The position numbers and the translations under genes were made by a program. Shown here in pieces: positions 53,999 to 64,000 of a DNA stretch of 64,000 nt. The stretch's first letter is position 1; each line of letters starts with the position of its first letter. The notes beneath the pieces are model-generated. The model ran no database searches and was not told the DNA's origin. It saw nothing but the letters and a program-made list of their open reading frames with translations. Source of the DNA: Pseudomonadota bacterium (lineage in GTDB: Bacteria; Bdellovibrionota_G; JALEGL01; DATDPG01); the NCBI GenBank assembly GCA_043809315.1, contig JAZDDX010000009.1, positions 1 to 64,000 of the forward strand, in the 5' to 3' direction.

Positions 53999-54550
53999 TC
54001 AGCGAAGAAACGACTTCGGTAGTCCCGAAAGAGCCGCTGATTTCAGTACGTCACCGACCACGAACGGAACGAAGCCGAGCATCACGGCTTGTCCAATTGA
54101 GAGATGTCCCCAAAGTGCGAGTTGGGCGACTCCCGGAATAAAGATGAGAAGCGAGACGGCGCACAATCGAGCGAACCGCCCGGCATAGTTGAACCGATTC
54201 CATCCCGAACGGACCCATCGATCGGTTCCCCATGCAGCCAGGACGAATCCGATCAGATACCCACCGGTCGGACCGAACAGCGCCGGAAGATTCGGAACGT
54301 TCGAGGCGAACATCGGAAGGCCGACGCCCCCCAGTAATAGATAGAGAATCTGAGCATACAGACCATCCCGACCGAGGATCACTCCGCCGGCGAGAACCAC
54401 CATCGTCTGAAGCGTCACCGGCACCGGGGTGAACGGAAGCGGGATCCGAACCCACGCCGCCGCACCGGTCAAAACCGCAAACAGCGAGATCCACGCGAAC
54501 CGAACGGCTGCGGAGTCCCGGACCTCAGCCTGGACAAGCGTCTTCTTCAT
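53999..54550 (-). CDS. bioY: Biotin transporter BioY
   Basis: IPLPFTPVPVTLQT, YLLLGGVGLPMFA, GPTGGYLIGF and PFVVGDVLK. Confidence 0.94.
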   Translation of the reverse strand: MKKTLVQAEVRDSAAVRFAWISLFAVLTGAAAWVRIPLPFTPVPVTLQTMVVLAGGVILGRDGLYAQILYLLLGGVGLPMFASNVPNLPALFGPTGGYLIGFVLAAWGTDRWVRSGWNRFNYAGRFARLCAVSLLIFIPGVAQLALWGHLSIGQAVMLGFVPFVVGDVLKSAALSGLPKSFLR

Positions 54551-54582
54551 GCCGCGTACGATGCCATAAACTCTCGGGATCG

Positions 54583-55443
54583 TCATATCTCTTGGTATTT
54601 CGGGTCCAAGATATCTCGCAAGGAGTCGCCGACGATGTTGAGGGCGAGGACGAGAAAGAACATCGCGCCGGTCGCGGCGGTGATCTGCCACCAGATCCCG
54701 CGCAGCAATTCCTCTCTCGCATCGGCGATCATGATCCCCCAGCTCGGTTCCCCCTGAACCCCGATCCCGAGATAACTCAGGATGACTTCCGATTTGATTG
54801 CGGAAACGAACCGGAGCGAGAAGTCGATGATCACGAGGTGAAACAGGTTCGGGAGAACATGCCGGAAGATCACGCGAAGATCCCCGGCTCCCAAAACCCG
54901 GGCCGCCGTCACGTAATCCTGCTCTCGATGTTTCAGGATTTCGCCACGGATCAGCCGGCAGATCCCTACCCACGAGGTGAGCCCGATCGCGACATAGACC
55001 GCCGTGATCCCCCTCCCCGCCACGAAGCTGATCGAGATCAAAAGGAGAATTTGCGGCACCGAAGCGACCGTCGTGTAGAGCCAAACCACCGTCGCATCGA
55101 CCCAACCGCCGAAATACCCGGCCAACGCCCCGAGCGTCGCACCGATCGGAATCGCGATGAGAGACGCGATGATCCCGACCGAGAAGGCGATCTGGATCCC
55201 GTGCACTGTTTTCGCCAGAACGTCCCTTCCTAAGAGATCGGTCCCGAACCAGAACTTCCCCCCCGGCGGGTCGTAACTCCCCCCGAGACGGGAAGCGTAA
55301 TCGAGCGGGAGCAGATGGGTCGCCGACATGAACCAGATCAAAGCGTAAAGTGCGATCACGCAGAGACAGGCAAACGCCATCCGGTCGGCCACGAGGCGGC
55401 GGAGCGCGAGACGGGCGGGGGAGTTGGCCGCAAAGAACTTCAT
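54583..55443 (-). CDS. oppC: Oligopeptide ABC transporter permease OppC/DppC
   Basis: FGTDLLGRD, EAA-like YVTAARVLGA, RHVLPN, LSYLGIG and PSWG. Confidence 0.9.
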   Translation of the reverse strand: MKFFAANSPARLALRRLVADRMAFACLCVIALYALIWFMSATHLLPLDYASRLGGSYDPPGGKFWFGTDLLGRDVLAKTVHGIQIAFSVGIIASLIAIPIGATLGALAGYFGGWVDATVVWLYTTVASVPQILLLISISFVAGRGITAVYVAIGLTSWVGICRLIRGEILKHREQDYVTAARVLGAGDLRVIFRHVLPNLFHLVIIDFSLRFVSAIKSEVILSYLGIGVQGEPSWGIMIADAREELLRGIWWQITAATGAMFFLVLALNIVGDSLRDILDPKYQEI

Positions 55444-56375
55444 CCCAACCTCACCCTCGGGTCGACCCAGGCGTACAAGATGTCGGAGACGAGGTTCCCC
55501 ACGATGTAGAGAACCGAACCGAGCACCACCATCGCCTGGATCACCGGCCAGTCGGCGTTGTTCAAGGCATCATAGAGAAGGTTCCCGAGCCCCGGGATCC
55601 CGAAGAAGTTCTCGAGAAGGAGGATTCCGAGGAAGAGAAACGGGATCTCGATCACGACCCTAGTGATGATCGGGACCAGGGCGTTCGGAAGGACGTGAAC
55701 CAAGAGGACGCGCGCCCGACTCGCCCCTTTCGCCGTCGCCGTCCGGACGTAATCCTTCCCCAGCTCCTCCAGAAATACCGTCCGGAAGAAGCGAGTGTCG
55801 TATCCGACCGAGACTACGACATAGATGATCCAAGGGAGAAGAAGGTACCGGATCCGGTCGGGAAATAGGCTTTCGTACCCGGAGATCGGGAAAAGGTTGA
55901 AGTGATACGCCAGGATGTACTGGCCGAAGAGGATGTAGGCGAGAAACGGAACGCTCATCCCGAAGACACAGGTCACGACCAAGAAGCGATCCAGGAACCG
56001 CCGATGCATCGCCGCCGAAAAAAGCGCCAGCAAGACCGAGAGAAAGACCGTGACCAGGAACGGAAGGGCGGTCAGAGACAGGGAAACCCCCGCGCCGTCG
56101 GCCAGCATCGTACCGATCGTCTGCTTCGTGTGAAACGACCGGTCGAAATCGAGTGTCACGATCTGTTTCACGAACCGGAGGAACTGGATCGGAAGCGGCC
56201 GGTCGAAGCCATACTCGTGCCGGAGCGCCTCCACTTCCTGCACCGTCGCATGTTTCCCGGCGAGCGCCAGGACCGGATCCCCCCCCGCGAAATGGAAGAT
56301 CACGAACGTGACCAGCGCCACCCCGAGGATAATCGGGACGGCGTGGACGATTCTTCGGAGAATGTAGGCGGTCAT
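55440..56375 (-). CDS. oppB: Oligopeptide ABC transporter permease OppB/DppB
   Basis: MTAYILRR, YGFDRP, DYVRTATAKG, FGIPGLG and DILYAWVDPR. Confidence 0.92.
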   Translation of the reverse strand: MTAYILRRIVHAVPIILGVALVTFVIFHFAGGDPVLALAGKHATVQEVEALRHEYGFDRPLPIQFLRFVKQIVTLDFDRSFHTKQTIGTMLADGAGVSLSLTALPFLVTVFLSVLLALFSAAMHRRFLDRFLVVTCVFGMSVPFLAYILFGQYILAYHFNLFPISGYESLFPDRIRYLLLPWIIYVVVSVGYDTRFFRTVFLEELGKDYVRTATAKGASRARVLLVHVLPNALVPIITRVVIEIPFLFLGILLLENFFGIPGLGNLLYDALNNADWPVIQAMVVLGSVLYIVGNLVSDILYAWVDPRVRLG

Positions 56376-58076: not shown

Positions 58077-58673
58077 GTGACAATCTTACCGAGATCCTTT
58101 TGTGTTGCGGCGTCCGTCGCCGCTCTCTTTCTCCCCGTTCCCATCGTTCGGGCCGAAACCGTCCGGCTCAAATCGGGGGAGCTTATCGAGGGGACCGTGC
58201 AAGACTTTCAGGAAAATATTCTGTCGATGGCCCAACCGGACGGCAAGATCCGGAAGATCGTCCGGGACGAGATCGTTCAGATCGAGTTCCAGAAACCGGC
58301 TCCTCCGCTGGTCACCTCCCCCCCGCCGGAGACCTTTCTCGACGCCCTTCCGAAGACCGTCTCCAAATTCCAGACCCCCAGGCAGACTTTCCTGACCTGG
58401 AGAAAAGCTGCGACAGCGGGGGATATCGACTCAATGGCCGATTGCTACTCGGCGATCCGGAAAAACGACGTCAAGAAGGAGCTCAAAAAATTGTCCCGCG
58501 ACCAGCGGGATCAGATGCGACAAGCGACGGCGACGACCGAATTCACGCCGGCCGAGCCGTTCTACCAAGGGGATCGGGCCGTCCTGGAAGTCACCTGGCG
58601 GGTCGGACTCCAAAGCGACAGCCAAATCCTTCAGTTCACGCTTGAAGGAAAAGACTGGAAAATCATTCAATAG
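58077..58673 (+). CDS. Hypothetical secreted protein
   Basis: Signal peptide ending VRA-ETVRLKSG..IEG; Pro-rich linker; C-terminal NTF2/DUF4878-like ending EGKDWKI. Confidence 0.65.
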   Translation: MTILPRSFCVAASVAALFLPVPIVRAETVRLKSGELIEGTVQDFQENILSMAQPDGKIRKIVRDEIVQIEFQKPAPPLVTSPPPETFLDALPKTVSKFQTPRQTFLTWRKAATAGDIDSMADCYSAIRKNDVKKELKKLSRDQRDQMRQATATTEFTPAEPFYQGDRAVLEVTWRVGLQSDSQILQFTLEGKDWKIIQ

Positions 58674-58698
58674 GCTGAATTTATTGTTCTTTATCAAC

Positions 58699-58718
58699 TA
58701 GACTGACATGTCGGTCTA
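58699..58718. promoter_or_regulatory. 20-bp palindrome TAGACTGACATGTCGGTCTA, candidate repressor operator
   Basis: 9 of 10 symmetric positions pair; lies in the intergenic region 55 nt upstream of the reductase operon. Confidence 0.6.
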
Positions 58719-58773
58719 ATTTCGGTCGCCTTCCCGAACGTTTTGGGCTAGGTTCCGGACTCCTTAAATCCCG

Positions 58774-60375
58774 ATGGAACGCTCGAACCTCGCATCCGCC
58801 CGTGCGACCGCGGACGGTTTTTCAGTCCACGAAACCTATAACGGCCGGCACCTCTTGATCGCCGGAGCCTCCGGCTTCCTGGGAAAGGTCTGGCTGTCGA
58901 TGGCGCTCGACCGCCTTCCCCAGATCGGCCGCATCTATGTGATGATGAGAAAGCGGGGGGTGAAATCGGCCCGCGCCCGGTTCGAAGAGATGCTTTCGAC
59001 CTCCTTTGTCTTCGAACCGCTCCACCGTAAACATGGAAGCTCCCTGAGCCGGTACCTTTCGGAACGTGTGGAGATCATCGAGGGGGACCTCACGAAACCG
59101 AATTTCGGAATGGCGACGGAAACCGCCAAACGGATCCGCGAGCGGGTCGACCTCCTGATCAACTGCGCCGGCCTCGTGGAGTTCAACCCCGACATCCGGG
59201 AGGCGCTCTCGACCAACCTCGACGGAACCGCCCACTTCCTCAAGTTCGCCGACGGATGCGATCACGCCGCCCTCCTCCACGTCAGCACCTGTTTCGTGGC
59301 AGGAACCCGCCAGGGGAAAATTTCCGAGACAATCGATCCCTTCACCTCCCCTTCGGGCAAAAAGTTCGACGTCGAAACGGAGTTGGCAAAGCTGCGGGAA
59401 CGGATCACCTCCATCGTGAACGACCCTCGGTTCAAAGAAATGGGAACGATCGAACGCCGTCGCGCGATCCGCGAGGCAATGATCGCAGAGGGAACCCGCC
59501 GCGCCGAAAAATGGGGGTGGCAGAATACCTACACCTACACGAAGGGGATGGCGGAGATGCTCCTCGCGCGCCGCCAGACCCGGCTTGCCTGGGCGACCTT
59601 CCGGCCGGCGATCGTCGAGAGCGCCGTTTCGTACCCGTTCCCCGGCTGGAACGAGGGGTTCAACACCTGCGGACCGCTCACCTACCTTCTCGGGACCTGG
59701 TTCCGCTACCTCCCCGCGAAGATCGGAAACCCGTTCGACATCGTTCCCGTCGATACCGTCGCCTCCGGAATGCTCTCCGTCGGCGCGGCTCTCCTGAATC
59801 GAACCCACGCCGAGGTCTATCAGTGTGGGACCTCCGATCTGAACCTCCTGACGATCGATCGCGCTTGCCGGCTCACCTCGTTGAGCCACCGTTTGCATTA
59901 CCGGCAGCATGGCAAGACGCTCGTGGAACGGCTGATCCGTTCCCACTGGAACGCGGTCACCGTCGCCGACAATCATCCGCTCACCGTTTCCTCACTCCGC
60001 ACCGTCTTCCGGGACTTAAACCAGCTCCTCGGGGAGATCTCCCGCTCCCCCCGCGCACCGAGACCGATCCGTGCCGCCAGCCGGAGTTTTTCGAAGATCT
60101 CCCAGAGAACCGACCGGAAGCTCGAGCAGATCAGCAATCTTCTCGAACTCTTCATGCCGTTCATTCACGACAACCATCACGTTTTTGAAACGCGGAATCT
60201 CAAGGAGCTGAAAGTGGAAGAGGAGTTCCGCTTCCAGCCGGAGACGCTCCCTTGGCGCGATTACTGGCTCAACATCCACATGCCGGGGCTCCGCCGCTGG
60301 TCGTTCCCGTTGATCGAGCGGAAACGGATCGAGTCGTTCACGCCTGAAACCCCCGTCCATCTCGAGGCTCTATGA
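58774..60375 (+). CDS. Fatty acyl-CoA reductase-like protein (NAD_binding_4 / male-sterility family; ElbD N-domain-like)
   Basis: IAGASGFLGKV, INCAGLVEF, HVSTCFVAG, WGWQNTYTYTKG (YxxxK), RPAIVESA..PFPGWNEG and C-terminal W..YW...HMPGL. Confidence 0.85.
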   Translation: MERSNLASARATADGFSVHETYNGRHLLIAGASGFLGKVWLSMALDRLPQIGRIYVMMRKRGVKSARARFEEMLSTSFVFEPLHRKHGSSLSRYLSERVEIIEGDLTKPNFGMATETAKRIRERVDLLINCAGLVEFNPDIREALSTNLDGTAHFLKFADGCDHAALLHVSTCFVAGTRQGKISETIDPFTSPSGKKFDVETELAKLRERITSIVNDPRFKEMGTIERRRAIREAMIAEGTRRAEKWGWQNTYTYTKGMAEMLLARRQTRLAWATFRPAIVESAVSYPFPGWNEGFNTCGPLTYLLGTWFRYLPAKIGNPFDIVPVDTVASGMLSVGAALLNRTHAEVYQCGTSDLNLLTIDRACRLTSLSHRLHYRQHGKTLVERLIRSHWNAVTVADNHPLTVSSLRTVFRDLNQLLGEISRSPRAPRPIRAASRSFSKISQRTDRKLEQISNLLELFMPFIHDNHHVFETRNLKELKVEEEFRFQPETLPWRDYWLNIHMPGLRRWSFPLIERKRIESFTPETPVHLEAL

Positions 60376-61523
60376 CGATCTTTGTAACCGGTGCGACCGG
60401 GTACCTCGGCTCGTACATCGCGAACGATCTCCTGCGAAATCATCCGGACCGCCTCGCTCTCCTGGTCCGGGCCAAGTCGGAGGAGGAGGCGAAACAACGG
60501 CTCTGGCAATCGCTTCAACTTCACATGGATTTCGAAACATTTTGCCGGTTCCTGACCGAACGGATCGAGATCTACCGGGGAGAGCTGACCGAGCCGGGCT
60601 TAGGTCTCTCCTCCTCCGCGCGGCAATCGCTGGTCCGTTCGATCGACTCGATCATCCATTGCGCCGCTTCGCTCAACCGAAAGTCGGAGAAGTCGTGCCT
60701 CAACGTGAACCTCCGCGGCACGCTGCATATGATCCGGCTTGCGCGCGAGGCGAACGAGAACCGCCCCCTCCGGCGCTTCAGCGACATCTCGACGGTCGCC
60801 GTCGCAGGAAACCGGCAGGACGAAACGGTTCTCGAGGAACGGATGATCGACTGGAGCCGGAGCGACTACGACCCGTACGCCCGGACCAAGAAGTTCTGCG
60901 AGTATATGCTCGCGGAACTCCTCCCCGACATCCCGCATACCGTGTTCCGCCCGAGCATCATCCTCGGCGACAGCCGGTTCCCCCAGACCACCCAGTTCGA
61001 CATGGTCCGAGCTTTCGCGTTCCTGGCGAAGCTCCCGGTTCTTCCTTTCTCCGGAACGTACCGCGCCGACATCGTTCCGGCCGACTTTGTCAGCCGCGCC
61101 GTCGTCACGATCCATCAGAAAGAGAAACCGAAACACGACTCCTACAACCTGAGCTCCGGAACCTACTCCCTGACCTACCGCGAGATCGTCCGGACCCTCC
61201 GAGAAGCGGGGACGGGGGGGAGAGGCATCTTCGCTCCCTGGCTCGAAACCCCGTTCTCCGGAACCGTATCGGCCCTGGCCGCGACCCCGCGCGCGCTCGG
61301 GATCTCGCCGCTCGCAACGCTCCTCAAGGTCTTTCTCCCGTATCTCACGTTCAACACCGTCTTCGACAACCGACGCGTGATCGAAGAGTTGGGGGAGAAG
61401 CCGGCGTCGTTCCGCTCGTACGCCGCGGGACTCTATCGGTTCGCGACGGAGGGGAAATTCACTTATCCGTACAAGCCTTATCCGGTCGAGACCGGAATCG
61501 AACGAAAGGTGGTCAACGTATGA
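60372..61523 (+). CDS. Extended SDR / thioester-reductase-like oxidoreductase
   Basis: IFVTGATGYLG, IIHCAAS, YARTK (YxxxK), RPSIILGDS and DIVPADFV. Confidence 0.88.
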   Translation: MTIFVTGATGYLGSYIANDLLRNHPDRLALLVRAKSEEEAKQRLWQSLQLHMDFETFCRFLTERIEIYRGELTEPGLGLSSSARQSLVRSIDSIIHCAASLNRKSEKSCLNVNLRGTLHMIRLAREANENRPLRRFSDISTVAVAGNRQDETVLEERMIDWSRSDYDPYARTKKFCEYMLAELLPDIPHTVFRPSIILGDSRFPQTTQFDMVRAFAFLAKLPVLPFSGTYRADIVPADFVSRAVVTIHQKEKPKHDSYNLSSGTYSLTYREIVRTLREAGTGGRGIFAPWLETPFSGTVSALAATPRALGISPLATLLKVFLPYLTFNTVFDNRRVIEELGEKPASFRSYAAGLYRFATEGKFTYPYKPYPVETGIERKVVNV

Positions 61524-62941
61524 TCGACGCCGATCGCGCTCTCGCGCTCTACATGGGGTCGTACATTCGGGCCGTCGGCTTCAAAACGAAGTTCGGAACC
61601 GCCGAGCCGCGCTGGAGTCCGGGGAAGAAGTTGAAGCTCCTCCTGGCCGGATATGTGGGCTCCCGGAACACCGGGGCCGACGTCCGGGTCGAAGAGATGA
61701 TTCGCCAGTTCCGTCACATCCTGGGGGACGACCGATCGGAGCTGACGATCATGTCGATCGATCCGACCCTCACGCAGGGGTACTTCGACGGTGTTCGCCA
61801 GATCGTGTTGCCACAGATCTTCCCGAAGTTCCTGTACGACGAATGCCCAAAACACCATGGAGTTGTCGCCTGCGAAGGGTCGATGTTCAAATCGAAGTTC
61901 GCGAACGCTCTCTCGACGATGATGGCGGGAGCTCTCGGAATCGCGGCGCGAGAAAACAAGCTGAGCGTCGGGTACGGTGCCGAGGCCGGAGCCATGACTC
62001 CGCCGCTGCGCCGATTCGTCGGGAAGCATTGCCGGAACTCGTTCGTGATCTGCCGGAACGAGCCGTCCCGGAAGATCCTCGAGGAGATGGGGATCCGGAC
62101 CGCGAGCGGAACCGACACCGCCTGGACATTCGAACCTTCCCCCCCCGCGACCGCGCAGGAGATCCTCCGACGGAAAGGATGGGACGGGCAGACCCCGATC
62201 CTGACCCTCTGTCCGATCAACCCCTACTGGTGGCCGGTCAAACCGCGACTCCTCAAAGCCGCGGCCCGACCGTTCGTTCCGGCCTACCGGGCCATCCACT
62301 ACAAATCGATCTACTTCCACGAGTATCCGACCGAGGCCCGGAAAAAATACGAACGCTATCTCGACTCGATCGCCGAGGCGGTGGCGGTGTTCCACCGCGA
62401 AAGGCGGTTCTTCCCGATCTTGGTCGCGATGGAACGCCTCGACCGGCGCGCCTGCCTCGACCTGCAGGCCCGTCTCAAGATGCCGATGCCGATCTTCGGG
62501 AGCGACGAGTACAACATGTACGACCTCGTCGCGATCTTGCGGAAAGCGTCGTTCCTAGTCAGCTCCCGCTTCCACGCCATCGTCACCTCGATGCCGGCGC
62601 AGGTCCCTTCCGCCGGGATCACGATGGACGAACGGATCCGGAACCTGATGACCGACCGCGGCCACCCCGACCTTTTCTTGACCGTCGATGACGAGCGGTT
62701 GACCGAGAGACTCGTCGGAATTCTCCGGAAACTCGACGCCGACGGTGAAAAAATCCGAGAGGAGATCGGCCGCTCGATCCCGAAACAGCTTCAATTGATG
62801 GGACAGATGGGGGTCGACTTCCTGGACGAGGTTTCCCGTGTTTACCCCGACTACCCGCGCCGCGATCTCAAGAGAGCCTGGGACCTACATCTTCCGCCGT
62901 TGCCGGAAACGGTCCGCAAACTGATGGAGAAATACGCATGA
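61520..62941 (+). CDS. Polysaccharide pyruvyl transferase family protein
   Basis: LLAGYVGSRNTGAD, ICRNEPS, DTAW and VSSRFHAIV match the family's GY.G..N.GD, R...S and R.H motifs. The ATG overlaps the SDR stop. Confidence 0.75.
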   Translation: MIDADRALALYMGSYIRAVGFKTKFGTAEPRWSPGKKLKLLLAGYVGSRNTGADVRVEEMIRQFRHILGDDRSELTIMSIDPTLTQGYFDGVRQIVLPQIFPKFLYDECPKHHGVVACEGSMFKSKFANALSTMMAGALGIAARENKLSVGYGAEAGAMTPPLRRFVGKHCRNSFVICRNEPSRKILEEMGIRTASGTDTAWTFEPSPPATAQEILRRKGWDGQTPILTLCPINPYWWPVKPRLLKAAARPFVPAYRAIHYKSIYFHEYPTEARKKYERYLDSIAEAVAVFHRERRFFPILVAMERLDRRACLDLQARLKMPMPIFGSDEYNMYDLVAILRKASFLVSSRFHAIVTSMPAQVPSAGITMDERIRNLMTDRGHPDLFLTVDDERLTERLVGILRKLDADGEKIREEIGRSIPKQLQLMGQMGVDFLDEVSRVYPDYPRRDLKRAWDLHLPPLPETVRKLMEKYA

Positions 62942-64000
62942 ACTTCGTCGAAACGATTCTTACCCGCCTTCGTTCCTCAACCGCCGATCCGATCGTCGAA
63001 GTCCACGGAAAGAAATTGGTTCCGATGACGGCGGCGGAGCTCCTCGACCGGATCGCCCGGGCTCGTTCCTTCCTGGAGGCGGGGGACGTCCGGGTCGGGG
63101 ACCGCGTGGTTCTCCTCGCTCCCAACTCGGCGAACTGGGTGGCCTGCGATCTCGCGATCCTTGCCTCCGGAGCGATCTCCGTCCCTCTTTACAGCCGGCA
63201 GGATCCGAAAGAGCTCGCCTTCATGGCCCGCGACTGCGCCCCGAAGCTCCTGATCGCCGCCGACCGGACGTTGGCCGACTCGATGCAACGGGAGTGGAAC
63301 AACCCCTGTCGGATCGTCACGTTCGACGAACTGTTCCGAACGGCACCGGCCGATCTTCCGATCGACGAGATCCGTTCGAACGATCCGGTGACGATCGTCT
63401 ACACCTCCGGCACGAGCGGCGACCCGAAAGGGGCGATCCTCACCTGCGGCAGCGTCGACTACATGCTGGCCCAGACCGCATCCCGTCTCCGGCTGGCGAC
63501 GGGGAAGAACGGGGGTACGGAGAGGGTCTTCCATTACCTTCCGGTCTGTTTCATGGGATCGCGGATCCTTCTCTGGACGCAGCTTCTTCGCGGAAACCCG
63601 CTTCACCTCTCGACCGATCTTTCGAACCTCCAAGAAGAACTCGCGACCGCCGAGCCGGAATATTTCCTGAACGTGCCCGCCCTTCTGGAGAGGATCCGGA
63701 GCGGTGTCGATCAGAAGATCCGGGAGATGGGGGGATTCCCCCTGCGGGCGTACCGAGCGGGCCTTGACGGGTATATCAACGCGAACCGGAACAACGCGAG
63801 TTTGCGCGGCTGGATCGACTTCTTCGTGGCAAAGCTGTTGGTGTTCCGCGCGATCCGGAAAAAAATCGGTTCCAGGATCCAGTTCCTGATCTGCGGGTCG
63901 GCCCCTCTTTCGGAAGAGACGCAGTTTTGGTTCGAAGCGATCGGGATCCCGATCCTCCAAGTGTACGGTTTGACCGAAACCACGGCGATCGTGACGATGG
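62938..64000 (+). CDS. AMP-dependent long-chain acyl-CoA synthetase (truncated at window end)
   Basis: ATG at 62938 (MNFVETIL...); GDRVVLLAPNS, IVYTSGTSGDPKGAIL, CGSAPL and QVYGLTET. No stop codon before 64000, so it is absent from the ORF track. Confidence 0.9.
   Translation, partial: MNFVETILTRLRSSTADPIVEVHGKKLVPMTAAELLDRIARARSFLEAGDVRVGDRVVLLAPNSANWVACDLAILASGAISVPLYSRQDPKELAFMARDCAPKLLIAADRTLADSMQREWNNPCRIVTFDELFRTAPADLPIDEIRSNDPVTIVYTSGTSGDPKGAILTCGSVDYMLAQTASRLRLATGKNGGTERVFHYLPVCFMGSRILLWTQLLRGNPLHLSTDLSNLQEELATAEPEYFLNVPALLERIRSGVDQKIREMGGFPLRAYRAGLDGYINANRNNASLRGWIDFFVAKLLVFRAIRKKIGSRIQFLICGSAPLSEETQFWFEAIGIPILQVYGLTETTAIVTM

What the first reader, a model, noticed from the sequence alone, without database searches (positions are those of the whole stretch)
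58774..64000. Lipid-biosynthesis operon: acyl reductase + second SDR + pyruvyl-transferase-like enzyme + acyl-CoA ligase
Seen: four translationally coupled genes (ATGA overlaps at 60372, 61520 and 62938), continuing past the window. Established: myxobacterial ElbD fuses a fatty-acyl reductase to adenylation, ACP and acyltransferase domains for ether-lipid synthesis, and sits near SDR genes. Inference: here the reductase stands alone and a pyruvyl-transferase-family (GT-B-like) protein is embedded. This suggests an uncharacterised fatty-alcohol-derived ether lipid or glycolipid pathway in which that protein may not act on a polysaccharide at all.
Basis: partly seen in the sequence, partly recalled or inferred. 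Interest (0 to 1): 0.7.

Follow-up and report, generated by a model that had tools for sequence, protein, structure and literature searches.

The report
Conserved ether-type lipid operon, PEP-transferase core
The four genes are the front half of a widely conserved but unstudied bacterial operon that probably builds an unusual fatty-alcohol-based, perhaps ether-linked, membrane lipid, using an enzyme type so far known only for decorating sugars.

Summary
Four genes with ATGA start/stop overlaps encode a fatty acyl-CoA reductase (FAR), a stand-alone thioester-reductase ("R-domain") SDR, a pyruvyl-transferase-family protein (PT) and an acyl-CoA ligase cut by the contig end.

They are part of a larger operon. 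A complete same-family genome has HAD-like, FAR, SDR, PT, ligase 1, crotonase, free ACP, ligase 2, lipid kinase, PlsC acyltransferase and TetR. In this genome the tail lies on contig C29.

The order is kept in most of 80 loci examined, from Myxococcota, Bdellovibrionota, Acidobacteriota and others. At least 586 species genomes hold a PT relative.

It is not the elb operon gene for gene. An elb-type cluster has a LarA-like protein where ElbC sits and one fused FAR-ligase-ACP-acyltransferase.

PT keeps the Arg/Arg-x-His set that aligns with the only invariant Arg/Arg/His of canonical pyruvyl transferases. It is the genome's only PF04230 gene. Elsewhere it is fused to FAR, to ligase-ACP, to the SDR or to ligase 1.

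My inferred mechanism: PEP plus fatty alcohol gives an enolpyruvyl ether, which is converted to a thioester, hydrated, reduced to an alkylglycerol and phosphorylated. None of this is tested.

This scan reported the same operon on at least 8 other genomes (AI notes).

The parts
58699..58718 (.). 20-bp palindrome TAGACTGACATGTCGGTCTA, 55 nt upstream of the FAR start; candidate operator of the operon's TetR regulator
   Evidence: Found as an inverted repeat. It is unique in G000 at up to 4 mismatches. Copies with 3 or fewer mismatches lie just upstream of the first operon gene in 9 other loci (L012, L013, L019, L025, L032, L033, L034, L039, L040) out of 1.57 Mb of loci scanned, where about 0.05 is expected by chance. 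Binding by TetR is inferred.
58774..60375 (+). Fatty acyl-CoA reductase (FAR), 533 aa, alcohol-forming type; homologous to the N-terminal reductase domain of ElbD
   Evidence: PF07993 6.3e-54 and a weak PF03015 match. Full-length match to the solved fatty acyl-CoA reductase 7eoz, E 9.8e-42, residues 13-508. An ElbD-like protein matches window 58819-60360 at 32% identity by tblastn, E 1.1e-78.
60372..61523 (+). Stand-alone thioester-reductase ('R-domain') type SDR, 383 aa
   Evidence: PF07993 1.7e-48. TIGR01746 3.6e-41, below its cut-off. Best solved relatives are the MxaA reductase domain 4u7w (1.3e-24), the M. tuberculosis Nrp R domain 4dqv, and carboxylic acid reductase. Orthologues are 52-65% identical and are present in 8 of the 9 relatives that have PT, and in none of the 31 without it.
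61520..62941 (+). Pyruvyl-transferase-family (PF04230) GT-B-fold protein, 473 aa; a lipid-operon subfamily, proposed PEP:lipid-alcohol transferase
   Evidence: PF04230 46.9 bits against a cut-off of 25.3. AF2 model pLDDT 91, GT-B fold. hhalign to 7 canonical PF04230 proteins gives 98.2% probability, E 2.9e-14, with R179, R350-x-H352 and R372 on the conserved Arg, Arg-x-His and Lys positions. It is the only PF04230 gene in G000. Identity is 49-65% across phyla.
62938..64000 (+). Acyl-CoA ligase 1 (ANL superfamily), N-terminal 354 aa in the window; runs to contig end C9:64364, C-terminus not assembled
   Evidence: PF00501 7e-50. 54% identical to ligase 1 of G004 over residues 1-476 of 547. The operon's tail (ligase 2 C-terminus, lipid kinase, PlsC acyltransferase, TetR) is at C29:2-3271.

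Best explanation
The four genes are the promoter-proximal half of a TetR-controlled biosynthetic operon. In full its order is (HAD-like), FAR, R-domain SDR, PT, ligase 1, crotonase, ACP, ligase 2, YegS-type lipid kinase, (PlsC acyltransferase), (TetR). It most likely makes a fatty-alcohol-derived, probably ether-linked, phospholipid precursor.

Shown:
- gene content, order and conservation;
- homology of FAR, ligase 2, acyltransferase and HAD-like to ElbD/ElbB (ACP only by its position);
- Arg/Arg-x-His set retained in PT;
- both catalytic Glu retained in the crotonase;
- natural fusions of PT to its neighbours.

Inferred route:
1. A ligase and FAR turn a fatty acid (or pool acyl-CoA/ACP) into a fatty alcohol.
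2. PT adds the alcohol to C2 of phosphoenolpyruvate and releases phosphate. With only one hydroxyl available, the product is an O-alkyl enolpyruvate (2-alkoxyacrylate), not a ketal.
3. The other ligase makes its CoA or ACP thioester.
4. The crotonase hydrates the acrylyl double bond to 2-O-alkyl-glyceroyl thioester.
5. The R-domain SDR reduces the thioester to 2-O-alkyl-glyceraldehyde or 2-O-alkylglycerol.
6. The lipid kinase phosphorylates it, and a PlsC-type acyltransferase (in the operon or housekeeping) acylates the free hydroxyl, giving an alkyl-acyl analogue of phosphatidic acid.

Which ligase serves which acid is open.
For: Operon reality
- ATGA overlaps at all 3 junctions.
- Same order in a complete same-family genome.
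- The tail lies on C29 in the matching orientation.
- Neighbours present beside PT in loci with enough flank: HAD-like 55 of 59, FAR 59 of 63, SDR 65 of 69, ligase 1 68 of 76, crotonase 63 of 70, ACP 57 of 67, ligase 2 51 of 61, kinase 47 of 59.
- PT and SDR orthologues co-occur in 8 of 9 relatives with PT and are both missing in 31 of 31 without it.

PT uses a PEP-like donor
- The profile-profile match to canonical PF04230 places R179, R350-x-H352 and R372 on the conserved Arg, Arg-x-His and Lys.
- These are the only invariant Arg/Arg/His of the 7 canonical proteins.
- Their order and R-x-H spacing fit CsaB R148/R306/H308/K328 and Pvg1p R217/R337/H339/K361, shown or docked as PEP binders (PMC10435577, passages read).

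PT works on the lipid intermediates
- It is the only PF04230 gene in G000.
- Fusions: FAR-PT of 923 aa, 5 member sequences (P0156); ligase-ACP-PT of 1348 aa, seen on 4 contigs (P0155); SDR plus half of PT (P0157); PT-ligase 1 of 967 aa (P0052).

Chemical logic
- Two ligases plus two reductases fit two carboxylate-to-alcohol reductions.
- The crotonase keeps GGGxE...PE in 68 of 70 orthologues, with 2 cut, so an alpha,beta-unsaturated thioester is expected, which an enolpyruvyl ether would supply without any acyl-CoA dehydrogenase in the operon.
- The SDR's nearest solved relatives are terminal reductive-release domains.
- The kinase scores above the YegS/Rv2252/BmrU lipid-kinase cut-off, 154.8 against 118.65, and keeps GGDGT in 47 of 48.
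Against: - No product is known and no enzyme was assayed. Steps 2-5 are inference only.
- Every characterised PF04230 enzyme named in the papers I read makes pyruvate ketals on sugars. I found no case of a lipid or mono-alcohol acceptor.
- The route predicts an sn-2 type ether, whereas the M. xanthus ether lipids described in PMC9131029 carry the alkyl chain at sn-1.
- Ligase 1 is missing from 8 of 76 assessable loci, and the acyltransferase is adjacent in only 11 of 57. The assignment of ligases, and the acylation step, are therefore loose.
- Fold search cannot separate PT from ordinary GT-B glycosyltransferases: PimA Z 21.3 against Pvg1p Z 16.8.
- Several fusions rest on few sequences and could be gene-calling artefacts. 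P0157 holds only 39% of PT.
- In this genome the crotonase, the ACP and about 2 kb of the operon are not in the assembly.
Confidence: 0.4

Rival explanations
1. PT is a true ketal-pyruvyl transferase acting on a lipid diol. The diol could be a long-chain 1,3-diol made by crotonase plus FAR from enoyl/3-hydroxyacyl thioester, or the free 2,3-diol of a monoradylglycerol. This would give a cyclic pyruvate ketal lipid. Its carboxylate is then activated by the second ligase, reduced by the R-domain SDR and phosphorylated by the kinase.
For: All characterised PF04230 enzymes form ketals on diols (4,6-O of hexoses is a 1,3-diol; PMC10435577 passages). PT keeps the family's conserved Arg/Arg-x-His residues. 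Two ligases and two reductases fit as well here. The acyltransferase is often not adjacent (11 of 57), as expected if no free hydroxyl is left to acylate.
Against: No acyl-CoA dehydrogenase in the operon supplies an enoyl thioester. After ketal formation there is no double bond, so the tight SDR-PT-ligase-crotonase block would be less well explained. The FAR-PT fusion fits either reading.
Confidence: 0.2
2. It is simply an unfused elb pathway. FAR, ligase 2, ACP and acyltransferase do what ElbD does in Myxococcus (chemistry still unknown) and make an sn-1 alkyl ether lipid. PT, ligase 1, crotonase and SDR are an accessory module that modifies the head group or supplies a precursor.
For: FAR, HAD-like, ligase 2 and acyltransferase each match an ElbD/ElbB-type cluster at 28-33% identity. 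A free ACP lies before ligase 2. Split elbD variants and neighbouring DAG kinases and acyltransferases are described for elb-like clusters (bioRxiv 10.64898/2026.06.23.733905, section 14 read).
Against: PT, SDR and crotonase are the best conserved proteins of the operon (49-65%, against 35-47% for FAR) and are never missing where flank allows, beyond 4-7 loci. This is odd for an accessory module. The LarA-like ElbC partner is absent. The HAD-like protein has lost the DxDxT motif.
Confidence: 0.2
3. A catabolic or salvage operon (TetR-repressed, two ligases, a crotonase) for an exogenous lipid or acid, or a plain fatty-alcohol/wax pathway, in which PT has a side role.
For: A TetR regulator with a conserved operator-like palindrome, ligases and a crotonase are common in degradation operons (general knowledge).
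Against: FAR, R-domain reductase, ACP, lipid kinase and PlsC acyltransferase are anabolic. There is no thiolase, acyl-CoA dehydrogenase or wax synthase in the core. A PEP-consuming transferase has no obvious catabolic role.
Confidence: 0.08
4. PT pyruvylates a polysaccharide as usual and merely happens to lie among lipid genes.
For: Pfam and NCBIfam name it after polysaccharide enzymes.
Against: It is embedded with ATGA overlaps on both sides. It keeps this position in most of 80 loci from several phyla, is fused to FAR, ligase or SDR elsewhere, scores far below the CsaB equivalog cut-off at 61.5 against 213.1, and has no glycan genes beside it.
Confidence: 0.02

Closest known systems
Myxococcus xanthus elbABCDE ether-lipid operon (ElbD; Lorenzen et al. 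2014, seen only as summarised in PMC9131029 and in the Fig. 1 legend of PMC13012113)
   Same: HAD-like, FAR, adenylating ligase, carrier protein, PlsC-type acyltransferase and an SDR occur together. FAR is 33%, ligase 2 28%, acyltransferase 28% and HAD-like 33% identical to an elb-type cluster of a Myxococcota genome.
   Different: - Here the ElbD domains are separate genes.
- The gene at the ElbC position of the elb-type cluster is a Lar_N (LarA-like) protein, absent here.
- This operon adds PT, a second ligase, a crotonase, an R-domain reductase and a lipid kinase.
- Its HAD-like protein lacks the DxDxT motif and is missing from this window.
- I identified the elb-type cluster by domain architecture, not by name.
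Ketal-pyruvyl transferases CsaB (Paenibacillus alvei) and Pvg1p (S. pombe, PDB 5ax7), Pfam PF04230
   Same: Pfam match above cut-off. GT-B-like two-domain fold, 5ax7 Z 16.8, rmsd 3.3 over 255 residues. The conserved Arg, Arg-x-His and a basic residue at the Lys position are retained (PMC10435577 passages).
   Different: - Far below the CsaB equivalog cut-off, and no PDB match by sequence.
- Family-specific N- and C-terminal extensions.
- About 34 residues (235-268) with no counterpart in the canonical profile, inside the lower-confidence stretch about 241-270, carrying invariant Trp, Tyr and Lys.
- Lipid-operon context with no glycan genes.
- The acceptor is proposed to be a lipid alcohol.
Carboxylic acid reductases and NRPS/PKS terminal reductive release (A-T-R; for example CAR 5mso, MxaA R domain 4u7w)
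   Same: Ligase 2, the free ACP and the stand-alone R-domain SDR together give the A-T-R parts list.
   Different: The three parts are separate proteins. A crotonase is interposed. Substrate unknown.
Eukaryotic/myxobacterial FAR-GNPAT-AGPS ether lipid route
   Same: It starts from a FAR-made fatty alcohol and ends in an alkyl-acyl glycerophosphate (as described in PMC9131029 and the PMC13012113 abstract).
   Different: No AGPS or GNPAT is in the operon. The ether bond is proposed to come from PEP chemistry, and the glycerol backbone to be built on the alcohol rather than taken from DHAP.
Enolpyruvyl transferases MurA / EPSP synthase (analogy only)
   Same: The proposed reaction, alcohol plus PEP giving an enol ether plus phosphate, is theirs (recalled; MurA chemistry is also summarised in PMC10435577).
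   Different: The paper reports only about 17-19% sequence identity between MurA and Pvg1p or CsaB (PMC10435577). That MurA has a different fold is recalled, not tested.

Membership tests
elb ether-lipid operon (M. xanthus type) | One multidomain ElbD: FAR, adenylation, ACP and acyltransferase in a single protein | tested here: not met
   FAR and ligase are separate genes in the window. ACP, ligase 2 and acyltransferase are separate in relatives. No fused ElbD-like frame in G000. An elb-type cluster has a 1636-aa fusion.
elb ether-lipid operon (M. xanthus type) | ElbC partner (found here to be a Lar_N / LarA-like protein in an elb-type cluster) | tested here: not met
   Lar_N 4.9e-36 at the ElbC position of L096. 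No tblastn match in G000 at 1e-5. G000 is 96% complete.
elb ether-lipid operon (M. xanthus type) | ElbB HAD phosphohydrolase with intact nucleophile motif | tested here: not met
   No HAD-like gene between the operator and FAR, and none found in G000 with the G004 query (a weak search, since it also misses the divergent L013 copy). Relatives carry [WF]R[VA]EG in place of DxDxT in 58 of 59, with 1 unaligned. The elb-type HAD has DVDGT. The motif meaning is recalled.
elb ether-lipid operon (M. xanthus type) | Makes alkyl ether lipids | not testable with these tools
   Needs lipidomics.
PF04230 polysaccharide pyruvyl transferases | Profile match above the curated cut-off | tested here: met
   46.9 bits against 25.3. 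hhalign to 7 canonical members: 98.2% probability, E 2.9e-14, 321 columns.
PF04230 polysaccharide pyruvyl transferases | PEP-binding Arg, Arg-x-His, Lys (CsaB R148, R306, H308, K328) | tested here: met
   R179, R350, H352 (invariant in 35 of 35) align with the invariant R, R, H of the canonical set. R372 replaces the Lys of YDPKV. The mapping to CsaB numbering is by motif order and spacing, not by an alignment with CsaB itself.
PF04230 polysaccharide pyruvyl transferases | Saccharide acceptor / glycan gene context | tested here: not met
   The context is lipid genes in most of the 80 loci. It is the only PF04230 gene in G000. Fused to FAR, ligase-ACP, SDR or ligase elsewhere. The acceptor itself is not testable here.
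CsaB equivalog (TIGR03609) | Score above the equivalog cut-off | tested here: not met
   61.5 bits against 213.1.
Alcohol-forming fatty acyl-CoA reductase (FAR) | NAD_binding_4 plus C-terminal Sterile domain; full-length likeness to a solved FAR | tested here: met
   PF07993 183 bits. Sterile only 19.7 bits (cut-off 35.4). 7eoz E 9.8e-42 over residues 13-508. Product chain length and alcohol versus aldehyde are not testable.
Thioester reductase (R) domain, TIGR01746 | Score above cut-off; GxxGxxG and YxxxK | tested here: inconclusive
   141.6 bits against 213.35. GATGYLG and YARTK can be read in P0002. Best solved relatives are R domains.
ANL acyl-CoA ligase | AMP-binding domain | tested here: met
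   PF00501 170 bits. The C-terminal domain is not assembled in G000.

The most novel reading that the evidence does not exclude
PT is a PEP:fatty-alcohol enolpyruvyl transferase, a new way of making a lipid ether bond. The next three enzymes (ligase, crotonase, R-domain reductase) build the glycerol backbone on the alcohol from PEP, giving a 2-O-alkylglycerol that the kinase feeds into phospholipid synthesis. The operon would then be a third, oxygen-independent and AGPS/PlsA-independent ether-lipid route. It would also be a candidate for the unexplained ether bonds of aerobic Acidobacteria, the group that includes brGDGT producers.
Probability: 0.25. Interest if true: 0.9.

Novelty: new variant of a known kind. 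Interest (0 to 1): 0.66.

Why it matters
How aerobic bacteria other than Myxococcus make ether lipids is unsettled. PMC11868695 (passages read) states that the acidobacterial pathway is unclear, because only some subdivision-4 genomes carry elb or agps. PMC9131029 (passages read) states that even ElbD's chemistry is unresolved.

This operon is present in hundreds of Acidobacteriota, Myxococcota and Bdellovibrionota genomes. It has a complete and chemically coherent parts list, and it contains an enzyme family never linked to lipids in the literature I could search.

If the inferred route holds, it gives:
- a new ether-bond-forming reaction;
- a marker gene (PT) for such lipids in metagenomes;
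- a warning that blast screens for 'ElbD homologues' (for example E below 1e-30 and at least 30% identity in PMC11868695) would also pick up this operon's FAR (32% identity, E 1.1e-78) and lump two different pathways together.

A cultured carrier, Paraliomyxa miuraensis SMH-27-4 (L021), makes it directly testable.

Tried and rejected
- Sequence search of PT profiles against PDB chains found nothing relevant: only de novo designed proteins at E 0.24 and 1.3.
- Foldseek and VIA fold searches gave generic GT-B hits. They cannot tell a pyruvyl transferase from a glycosyltransferase.
- Solved relatives of ligase 1 and ligase 2 are nearly the same list (feruloyl-, malonyl- and fatty acyl-CoA synthetases), so substrate size could not be inferred.
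- NCBIfam gave only generic names for the crotonase and the ligases.
- The CarF/PEDS1 family PF10520 was not found in G000, but the control rang nowhere, so this says nothing.
- The metagenome scan with the PT-ligase fusion P0052 returned 48 loci that match only the ligase half at 23-39%. No context for the fusion was obtained.
- The Rfam scan of the window found no RNA family.
- The sigma-70 promoter scan upstream of FAR found 0 sites.
- The HAD-like gene, crotonase and operon ACP were not found in G000. The last two probably lie in the unassembled gap of about 2 kb between C9 and C29, whose adjacency is inferred from synteny only.
- Paper searches without a relevant hit: 'pyruvyl transferase' + 'ether lipid' (1 unrelated S-layer review); 'elbC' + 'elbD' + 'Acidobacteria' (0); 'pyruvyl transferase' + 'acyl-CoA reductase' (0); 'pyruvyl transferase' + 'brGDGT' (0); '2-O-alkyl' + glycerol + ether lipid + bacteria (2 unrelated).
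The domain tables and figures of the sponge elb-like preprint, and Sinninghe Damsté et al. 2018 (not in the library), may show this cluster without my seeing it.
- L097 was fetched and not used.
- No complex prediction was run, because the report claims no binding.

Full report
**1. What is in the window**

On the + strand there are four open reading frames:
- 58774-60375 (533 aa)
- 60372-61523 (383 aa)
- 61520-62941 (473 aa from the ATG; the open frame extends back to 60542, but relatives align from residue 1-5 of the ATG form)
- 62938 to the window end (354 aa, still open)

Each of the three junctions reads ATGA, so every start overlaps the previous stop.

Family matches (Pfam, NCBIfam):
- Gene 1: NAD_binding_4 at 6.3e-54, with a weak Sterile domain.
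- Gene 2: NAD_binding_4 at 1.7e-48. It also matches the thioester-reductase model TIGR01746 at 3.6e-41, below that model's cut-off.
- Gene 3: PS_pyruv_trans at 46.9 bits against a cut-off of 25.3. It matches the CsaB equivalog at only 61.5 bits against a cut-off of 213.1.
- Gene 4: AMP-binding at 7e-50.

The closest solved relatives sharpen the names. Gene 1 matches a solved fatty acyl-CoA reductase (7eoz) over nearly its full length, E 9.8e-42. Gene 2 matches terminal reductive-release domains: MxaA 4u7w at 1.3e-24, the M. tuberculosis Nrp R domain, a PKS R domain and carboxylic acid reductase.

GC content (0.61-0.62) is that of the genome.

**2. The four genes are half of a larger operon**

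The window is contig C9:1-64000 of a 2.42-Mb, 44-contig, 96%-complete genome. C9 ends at 64364, inside the ligase gene. Earlier notes of this scan call the organism an uncultured Bdellovibrionota bacterium; I did not check this.

A complete genome of the same family (G004) has, in one direction:
- a HAD-like gene
- FAR
- the SDR
- PT
- ligase 1 (AMP-binding plus AMP-binding_C_3)
- an enoyl-CoA hydratase (crotonase)
- a 77-aa carrier protein with an LGINS serine motif
- ligase 2
- a YegS/Rv2252/BmrU-family lipid kinase (154.8 bits, cut-off 118.65)
- a PlsC-type acyltransferase
- a TetR regulator

In the window's own genome the tail is at the start of contig C29, in the matching orientation:
- ligase 2 from its residue 244 (C29:2-1012)
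- kinase (1015-1914)
- acyltransferase (1911-2651)
- TetR (to 3271)

About 2 kb is not in the assembly: the end of ligase 1, the crotonase, the ACP and the start of ligase 2. That C9 and C29 are neighbours is inferred from synteny only.

**3. Conservation**

Within the 40 relatives searched, a strong PT orthologue (E at or below 3.3e-152) occurs in 9, all among the 14 genomes of the same order. One more genome, outside the order, has only a weak match (E 4.8e-4, G033) to a canonical PF04230 gene. None was found in the other 30. The SDR orthologue is in 8 of those 9, the ninth locus being cut by a contig end. It is in none of the 31 genomes without a PT orthologue.

The best 80 loci carry titles naming:
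- Nannocystaceae, Polyangiales, Sandaracinaceae and other Myxococcota, including the cultured Paraliomyxa miuraensis SMH-27-4
- Bdellovibrionota and Bradymonadia
- Terriglobia and Blastocatellia (Acidobacteriota)
- single MAGs labelled Xenobia, Binatus, Verrucomicrobiia and Acidimicrobiia

Among loci with enough flank to judge, these genes lie beside PT on the same strand:

| Gene | Present / assessable |
|---|---|
| HAD-like | 55 of 59 |
| FAR | 59 of 63 |
| SDR | 65 of 69 |
| ligase 1 | 68 of 76 |
| crotonase | 63 of 70 |
| ACP | 57 of 67 |
| ligase 2 | 51 of 61 |
| kinase | 47 of 59 |
| acyltransferase | 11 of 57 |
| TetR | 5 of 57 |

The commonest string, in 31 of 80 loci, is HAD-FAR-SDR-PT-ligase 1-crotonase-ACP-ligase 2-kinase.

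Exceptions told in full:
- 2 loci show PT alone.
- In several, the neighbours lie 7-9 kb away.
- A handful of Myxococcota and Bradymonadia loci lack ligase 1.
- Terriglobia operons end at the kinase; an unknown ORF, a VKOR gene and an esterase follow.
- One Blastocatellia locus has a KAS III gene inserted before the ACP.

PT (49-65% identical to the window's protein), the SDR (52-65%) and the crotonase (49-62%, measured against G004's) are better conserved than FAR (35-47%, against G004's).

**4. Relation to the known elb operon**

The review PMC9131029 (passages read) describes:
- elbA and elbE as NAD-dependent epimerase/dehydratase proteins
- elbB as a HAD-like phosphohydrolase
- elbC as a protein of unknown function
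- elbD as FAR-ACS-ACP-acyltransferase

It also says that ElbD's reductase and acyltransferase activities could not be shown.

In a Myxococcota genome I found a cluster of exactly this architecture (G053, L096): HAD with an intact DVDGT motif, a 548-aa protein with a Lar_N (lactate racemase N-terminal) domain at 4.9e-36, a 1636-aa FAR/AMP-binding/PP-binding/acyltransferase protein, and an Epimerase-type SDR. I identified it by architecture, not by name.

Compared with it by blastp, using G004's proteins:
- FAR is 33% identical
- the HAD-like protein is 33%
- ligase 2 is 28% (242 bits; ligase 1 only 167 bits)
- the acyltransferase is 28%

G000 has no Lar_N protein and no fused ElbD-like frame.

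So the cluster is a paralogous, unfused relative of elb. It has a different partner (PT instead of the LarA-like protein) and four extra enzymes.

The preprint on sponge elb-like clusters (section 14 read in full) describes split elbD variants and neighbouring DAG kinases and acyltransferases. Its main text does not contain the word pyruvyl. Its supplements and figures were not available to me.

**5. The PT protein**

Structure:
- An AlphaFold2 model built on 35 orthologues is confident (mean pLDDT 91, pTM 0.89). The stretch at about 241-270 is less confident, at 59-66.
- The fold is GT-B. The top matches are glycosyltransferases and UDP-GlcNAc 2-epimerases (PimA 2gej: Z 21.3, rmsd 3.4, 326 residues aligned). 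The only solved pyruvyl transferase, Pvg1p 5ax7, is at Z 16.8, rmsd 3.3, 255 aligned.
- Fold alone therefore does not decide the chemistry.

Sequence does better:
- A profile of the 35 orthologues aligns to a profile of 7 canonical PF04230 proteins from other genomes with 98.2% probability (E 2.9e-14, 321 columns).
- The only invariant residues of the canonical set beyond glycines, a proline and an asparagine are one Arg in a '(V)RDxxS' motif and the Arg and His of 'RxH'.
- These align with R179 (CRNEPS) and R350-F-H352 (SSRFH), which are invariant in 35 of 35 orthologues.
- The Lys of the canonical 'YDPKV' aligns with invariant R372 (MDERI).

The CsaB paper (PMC10435577, passages read) reports that R148 and H308 are needed for activity, that K328 affects PEP kinetics, and that R306 was indicated by docking. 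It gives the Pvg1p equivalents as R217, R337, H339 and K361. The order and the R-x-H/+20 spacing agree with my mapping, but I did not align CsaB itself.

What is special to the lipid-operon subfamily:
- an N-terminal helix (residues 4-24)
- a C-terminal helical extension (after about residue 418)
- about 34 residues (235-268) with no counterpart in the canonical profile, carrying invariant W238, P239, V240, K246, Y261 and Y265. They sit in the flexible, lower-confidence part of the model, near where the CsaB paper places a catalytically important loop.

A full scan of 1.84 billion representatives with the profile found 294 clusters at E at or below 1e-30, and 2636 at or below 1e-3. PT is the only PF04230 gene in G000.

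**6. Fusions**

PT occurs fused to its neighbours in other lineages:

| Protein | Length | Architecture | PT identity | Support |
|---|---|---|---|---|
| P0156 | 923 aa | FAR (NAD_binding_4 + Sterile) then PT | 44% to P0003 over 96% | 5 member sequences |
| P0155 | 1348 aa | adenylation domain (with an inserted PilZ domain), PP-binding, then PT | 58% over 99% | seen on 4 contigs |
| P0157 | 832 aa | SDR (56% to G004's SDR) plus the first half of PT | 61% over 39% | 1 sequence |
| P0052 | 967 aa | PT then ligase 1 type (32% to G004's ligase 1) | 38% to G004's PT | 1 of 150 listed representatives |

Some of these may be gene-calling artefacts, and I could not get genomic context for them. Taken together with the ATGA coupling, they tie PT to the acyl-reducing and activating enzymes rather than to any glycan machinery. 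The FAR-PT fusion points to the FAR product as the PT acceptor.

**7. Other catalytic signatures** (the motif meanings are recalled, not from a call)

- The crotonase keeps both catalytic glutamates (GGGxE and, 20 residues on, PE) in 68 of 70 orthologues; the other 2 are cut. It should be a real hydratase.
- The kinase keeps GGDGT in 47 of 48.
- The acyltransferase keeps HxxxxD in 10 of 11.
- The HAD-like protein has [WF]R[VA]EG where HAD phosphatases have DxDxT, in 58 of 59 with 1 unaligned. It is probably not a phosphatase.

In the window the HAD-like gene is simply missing. A 20-bp palindrome, TAGACTGACATGTCGGTCTA (58699-58718), lies 55 nt before the FAR start. Copies with 3 or fewer mismatches lie directly before the first operon gene (the HAD-like gene) in 9 other loci from Bdellovibrionota, Myxococcota and Bradymonadia. 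About 0.05 such copies would be expected by chance in the 1.57 Mb scanned. The site is unique in G000. This is a good candidate for the operator of the operon's TetR, and it marks FAR as the first gene here.

Upstream, on the other strand, lie an ABC transporter (SBP_bac_5 plus two permeases) and a BioY gene, unrelated to the operon.

**8. How it most likely works**

The parts list has:
- two carboxylate activators
- two thioester reductases, one acyl-CoA type and one carrier-protein release type
- a carrier protein
- a PEP-type transferase
- a hydratase for alpha,beta-unsaturated thioesters
- a lipid kinase
- no acyl-CoA dehydrogenase, thiolase, AGPS, glycosyltransferase or wax synthase in the conserved core

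The reading that gives every conserved enzyme a job is this:
1. Fatty acid goes to thioester and then to fatty alcohol (a ligase and FAR).
2. The alcohol attacks C2 of PEP on PT. Because there is no second hydroxyl to close a ketal, the product is an O-alkyl enolpyruvate.
3. A ligase makes its thioester.
4. The crotonase adds water to the terminal methylene, giving a 2-O-alkyl-glyceroyl thioester.
5. The R-domain SDR releases it reductively as 2-O-alkylglycerol.
6. The kinase phosphorylates it, and a PlsC-type enzyme acylates it.

Steps 2-5 are inference from chemical logic and gene adjacency (SDR, PT, ligase 1 and crotonase are contiguous).

Which ligase serves which acid is open:
- For ligase 1 acting on the PT product: homology of ligase 2, FAR and the acyltransferase to ElbD's domains, the ACP's position before ligase 2, and the PT-ligase 1 fusion.
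- For ligase 2/ACP acting on the PT product: the loss of ligase 1 in 8 of 76 loci and the carrier-dependent nature of R domains.

I put 0.4 on this overall reading and about 0.25 on the specific enol-ether route.

Rivals:
- a pyruvate ketal on a lipid diol (0.2)
- an ordinary unfused elb pathway with PT as an accessory (0.2)
- a catabolic or wax role (0.08)
- a polysaccharide role (0.02)

**9. Novelty and context**

I found no paper that links a PF04230 protein with fatty acyl reductases, ether lipids or brGDGTs. The searched library lacks most subscription journals, and Lorenzen et al. 2014 and Sinninghe Damsté et al. 2018 were seen only through citing papers.

PMC11868695 (passages read) states that the acidobacterial ether pathway is unclear, because only some subdivision-4 genomes carry elb or agps. 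Its blast criteria for 'ElbD homologues' would also catch this operon's FAR.

This scan has already reported the same operon on at least 8 other genomes. Those AI notes reach the same general conclusion. One gave me the lead to look for the free ACP, which I confirmed.

- the finding that the ElbC position is LarA-like
- the mapping of the conserved Arg/Arg-x-His residues
- the four fusion architectures
- the degenerate HAD motif
- the conserved operator
- the explicit enol-ether/hydration/reduction scheme

I class it as a new variant of a known kind: an elb-related lipid operon with an undescribed PEP-transferase module.

Noticed in passing
window 58699-58718; also L012:17532, L013:4305, L019:231, L025:423, L032:6167, L033:6397, L034:6373, L039:6420, L040:1827: A 20-bp palindrome (consensus about TAGACTGAC-NN-GTCAGTCTA) is conserved across phyla directly upstream of the operon's first gene. 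It is a likely TetR operator and is unique in G000.
   Followed up: partly
window 58172-58773 (no HAD gene); L012:16803-17483 and orthologues: The operon's HAD-like protein has [WF]R[VA]EG in place of the DxDxT nucleophile motif in 58 of 59 relatives, so it is probably not a phosphatase. It is missing altogether from this genome's copy, where the operator abuts FAR.
   Followed up: partly
L096:11452-13098 (-): In an elb-type cluster (HAD, X, FAR-A-ACP-AT, SDR), the gene at the position of ElbC, called 'unknown function' in the review, carries a lactate-racemase N-terminal (Lar_N) domain at 4.9e-36. This hints at a 2-hydroxy-acid intermediate in the classical elb pathway too.
   Followed up: partly
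P0155 (1348 aa), residues 376-469: A PilZ (c-di-GMP-binding) domain is inserted in the adenylation domain of a ligase-ACP-PT fusion protein. This suggests second-messenger control of this lipid pathway in some lineage.
   Followed up: no
L074:14797-15801 (+): A Blastocatellia version of the operon has a KAS III (FabH-like) gene, an unknown 209-aa ORF and a PIN-domain ORF inserted between the crotonase and the ACP.
   Followed up: partly
G008:C2:48-1166: The SDR orthologue of a same-order relative is read with one in-frame TAG. This could be a sequencing error, a pseudogene or a contig-edge effect; not examined.
   Followed up: no
window 54000-56000: There is a strong A-over-T skew on the + strand (0.25-0.30) over the two ABC permease genes and BioY on the minus strand. 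It probably reflects T-rich codons of membrane proteins.
   Followed up: no
G000 contigs C9 (end 64364) and C29 (start): The assembly breaks inside the operon, and about 2 kb (end of ligase 1, crotonase, ACP, start of ligase 2) is absent from all 44 contigs.
   Followed up: partly
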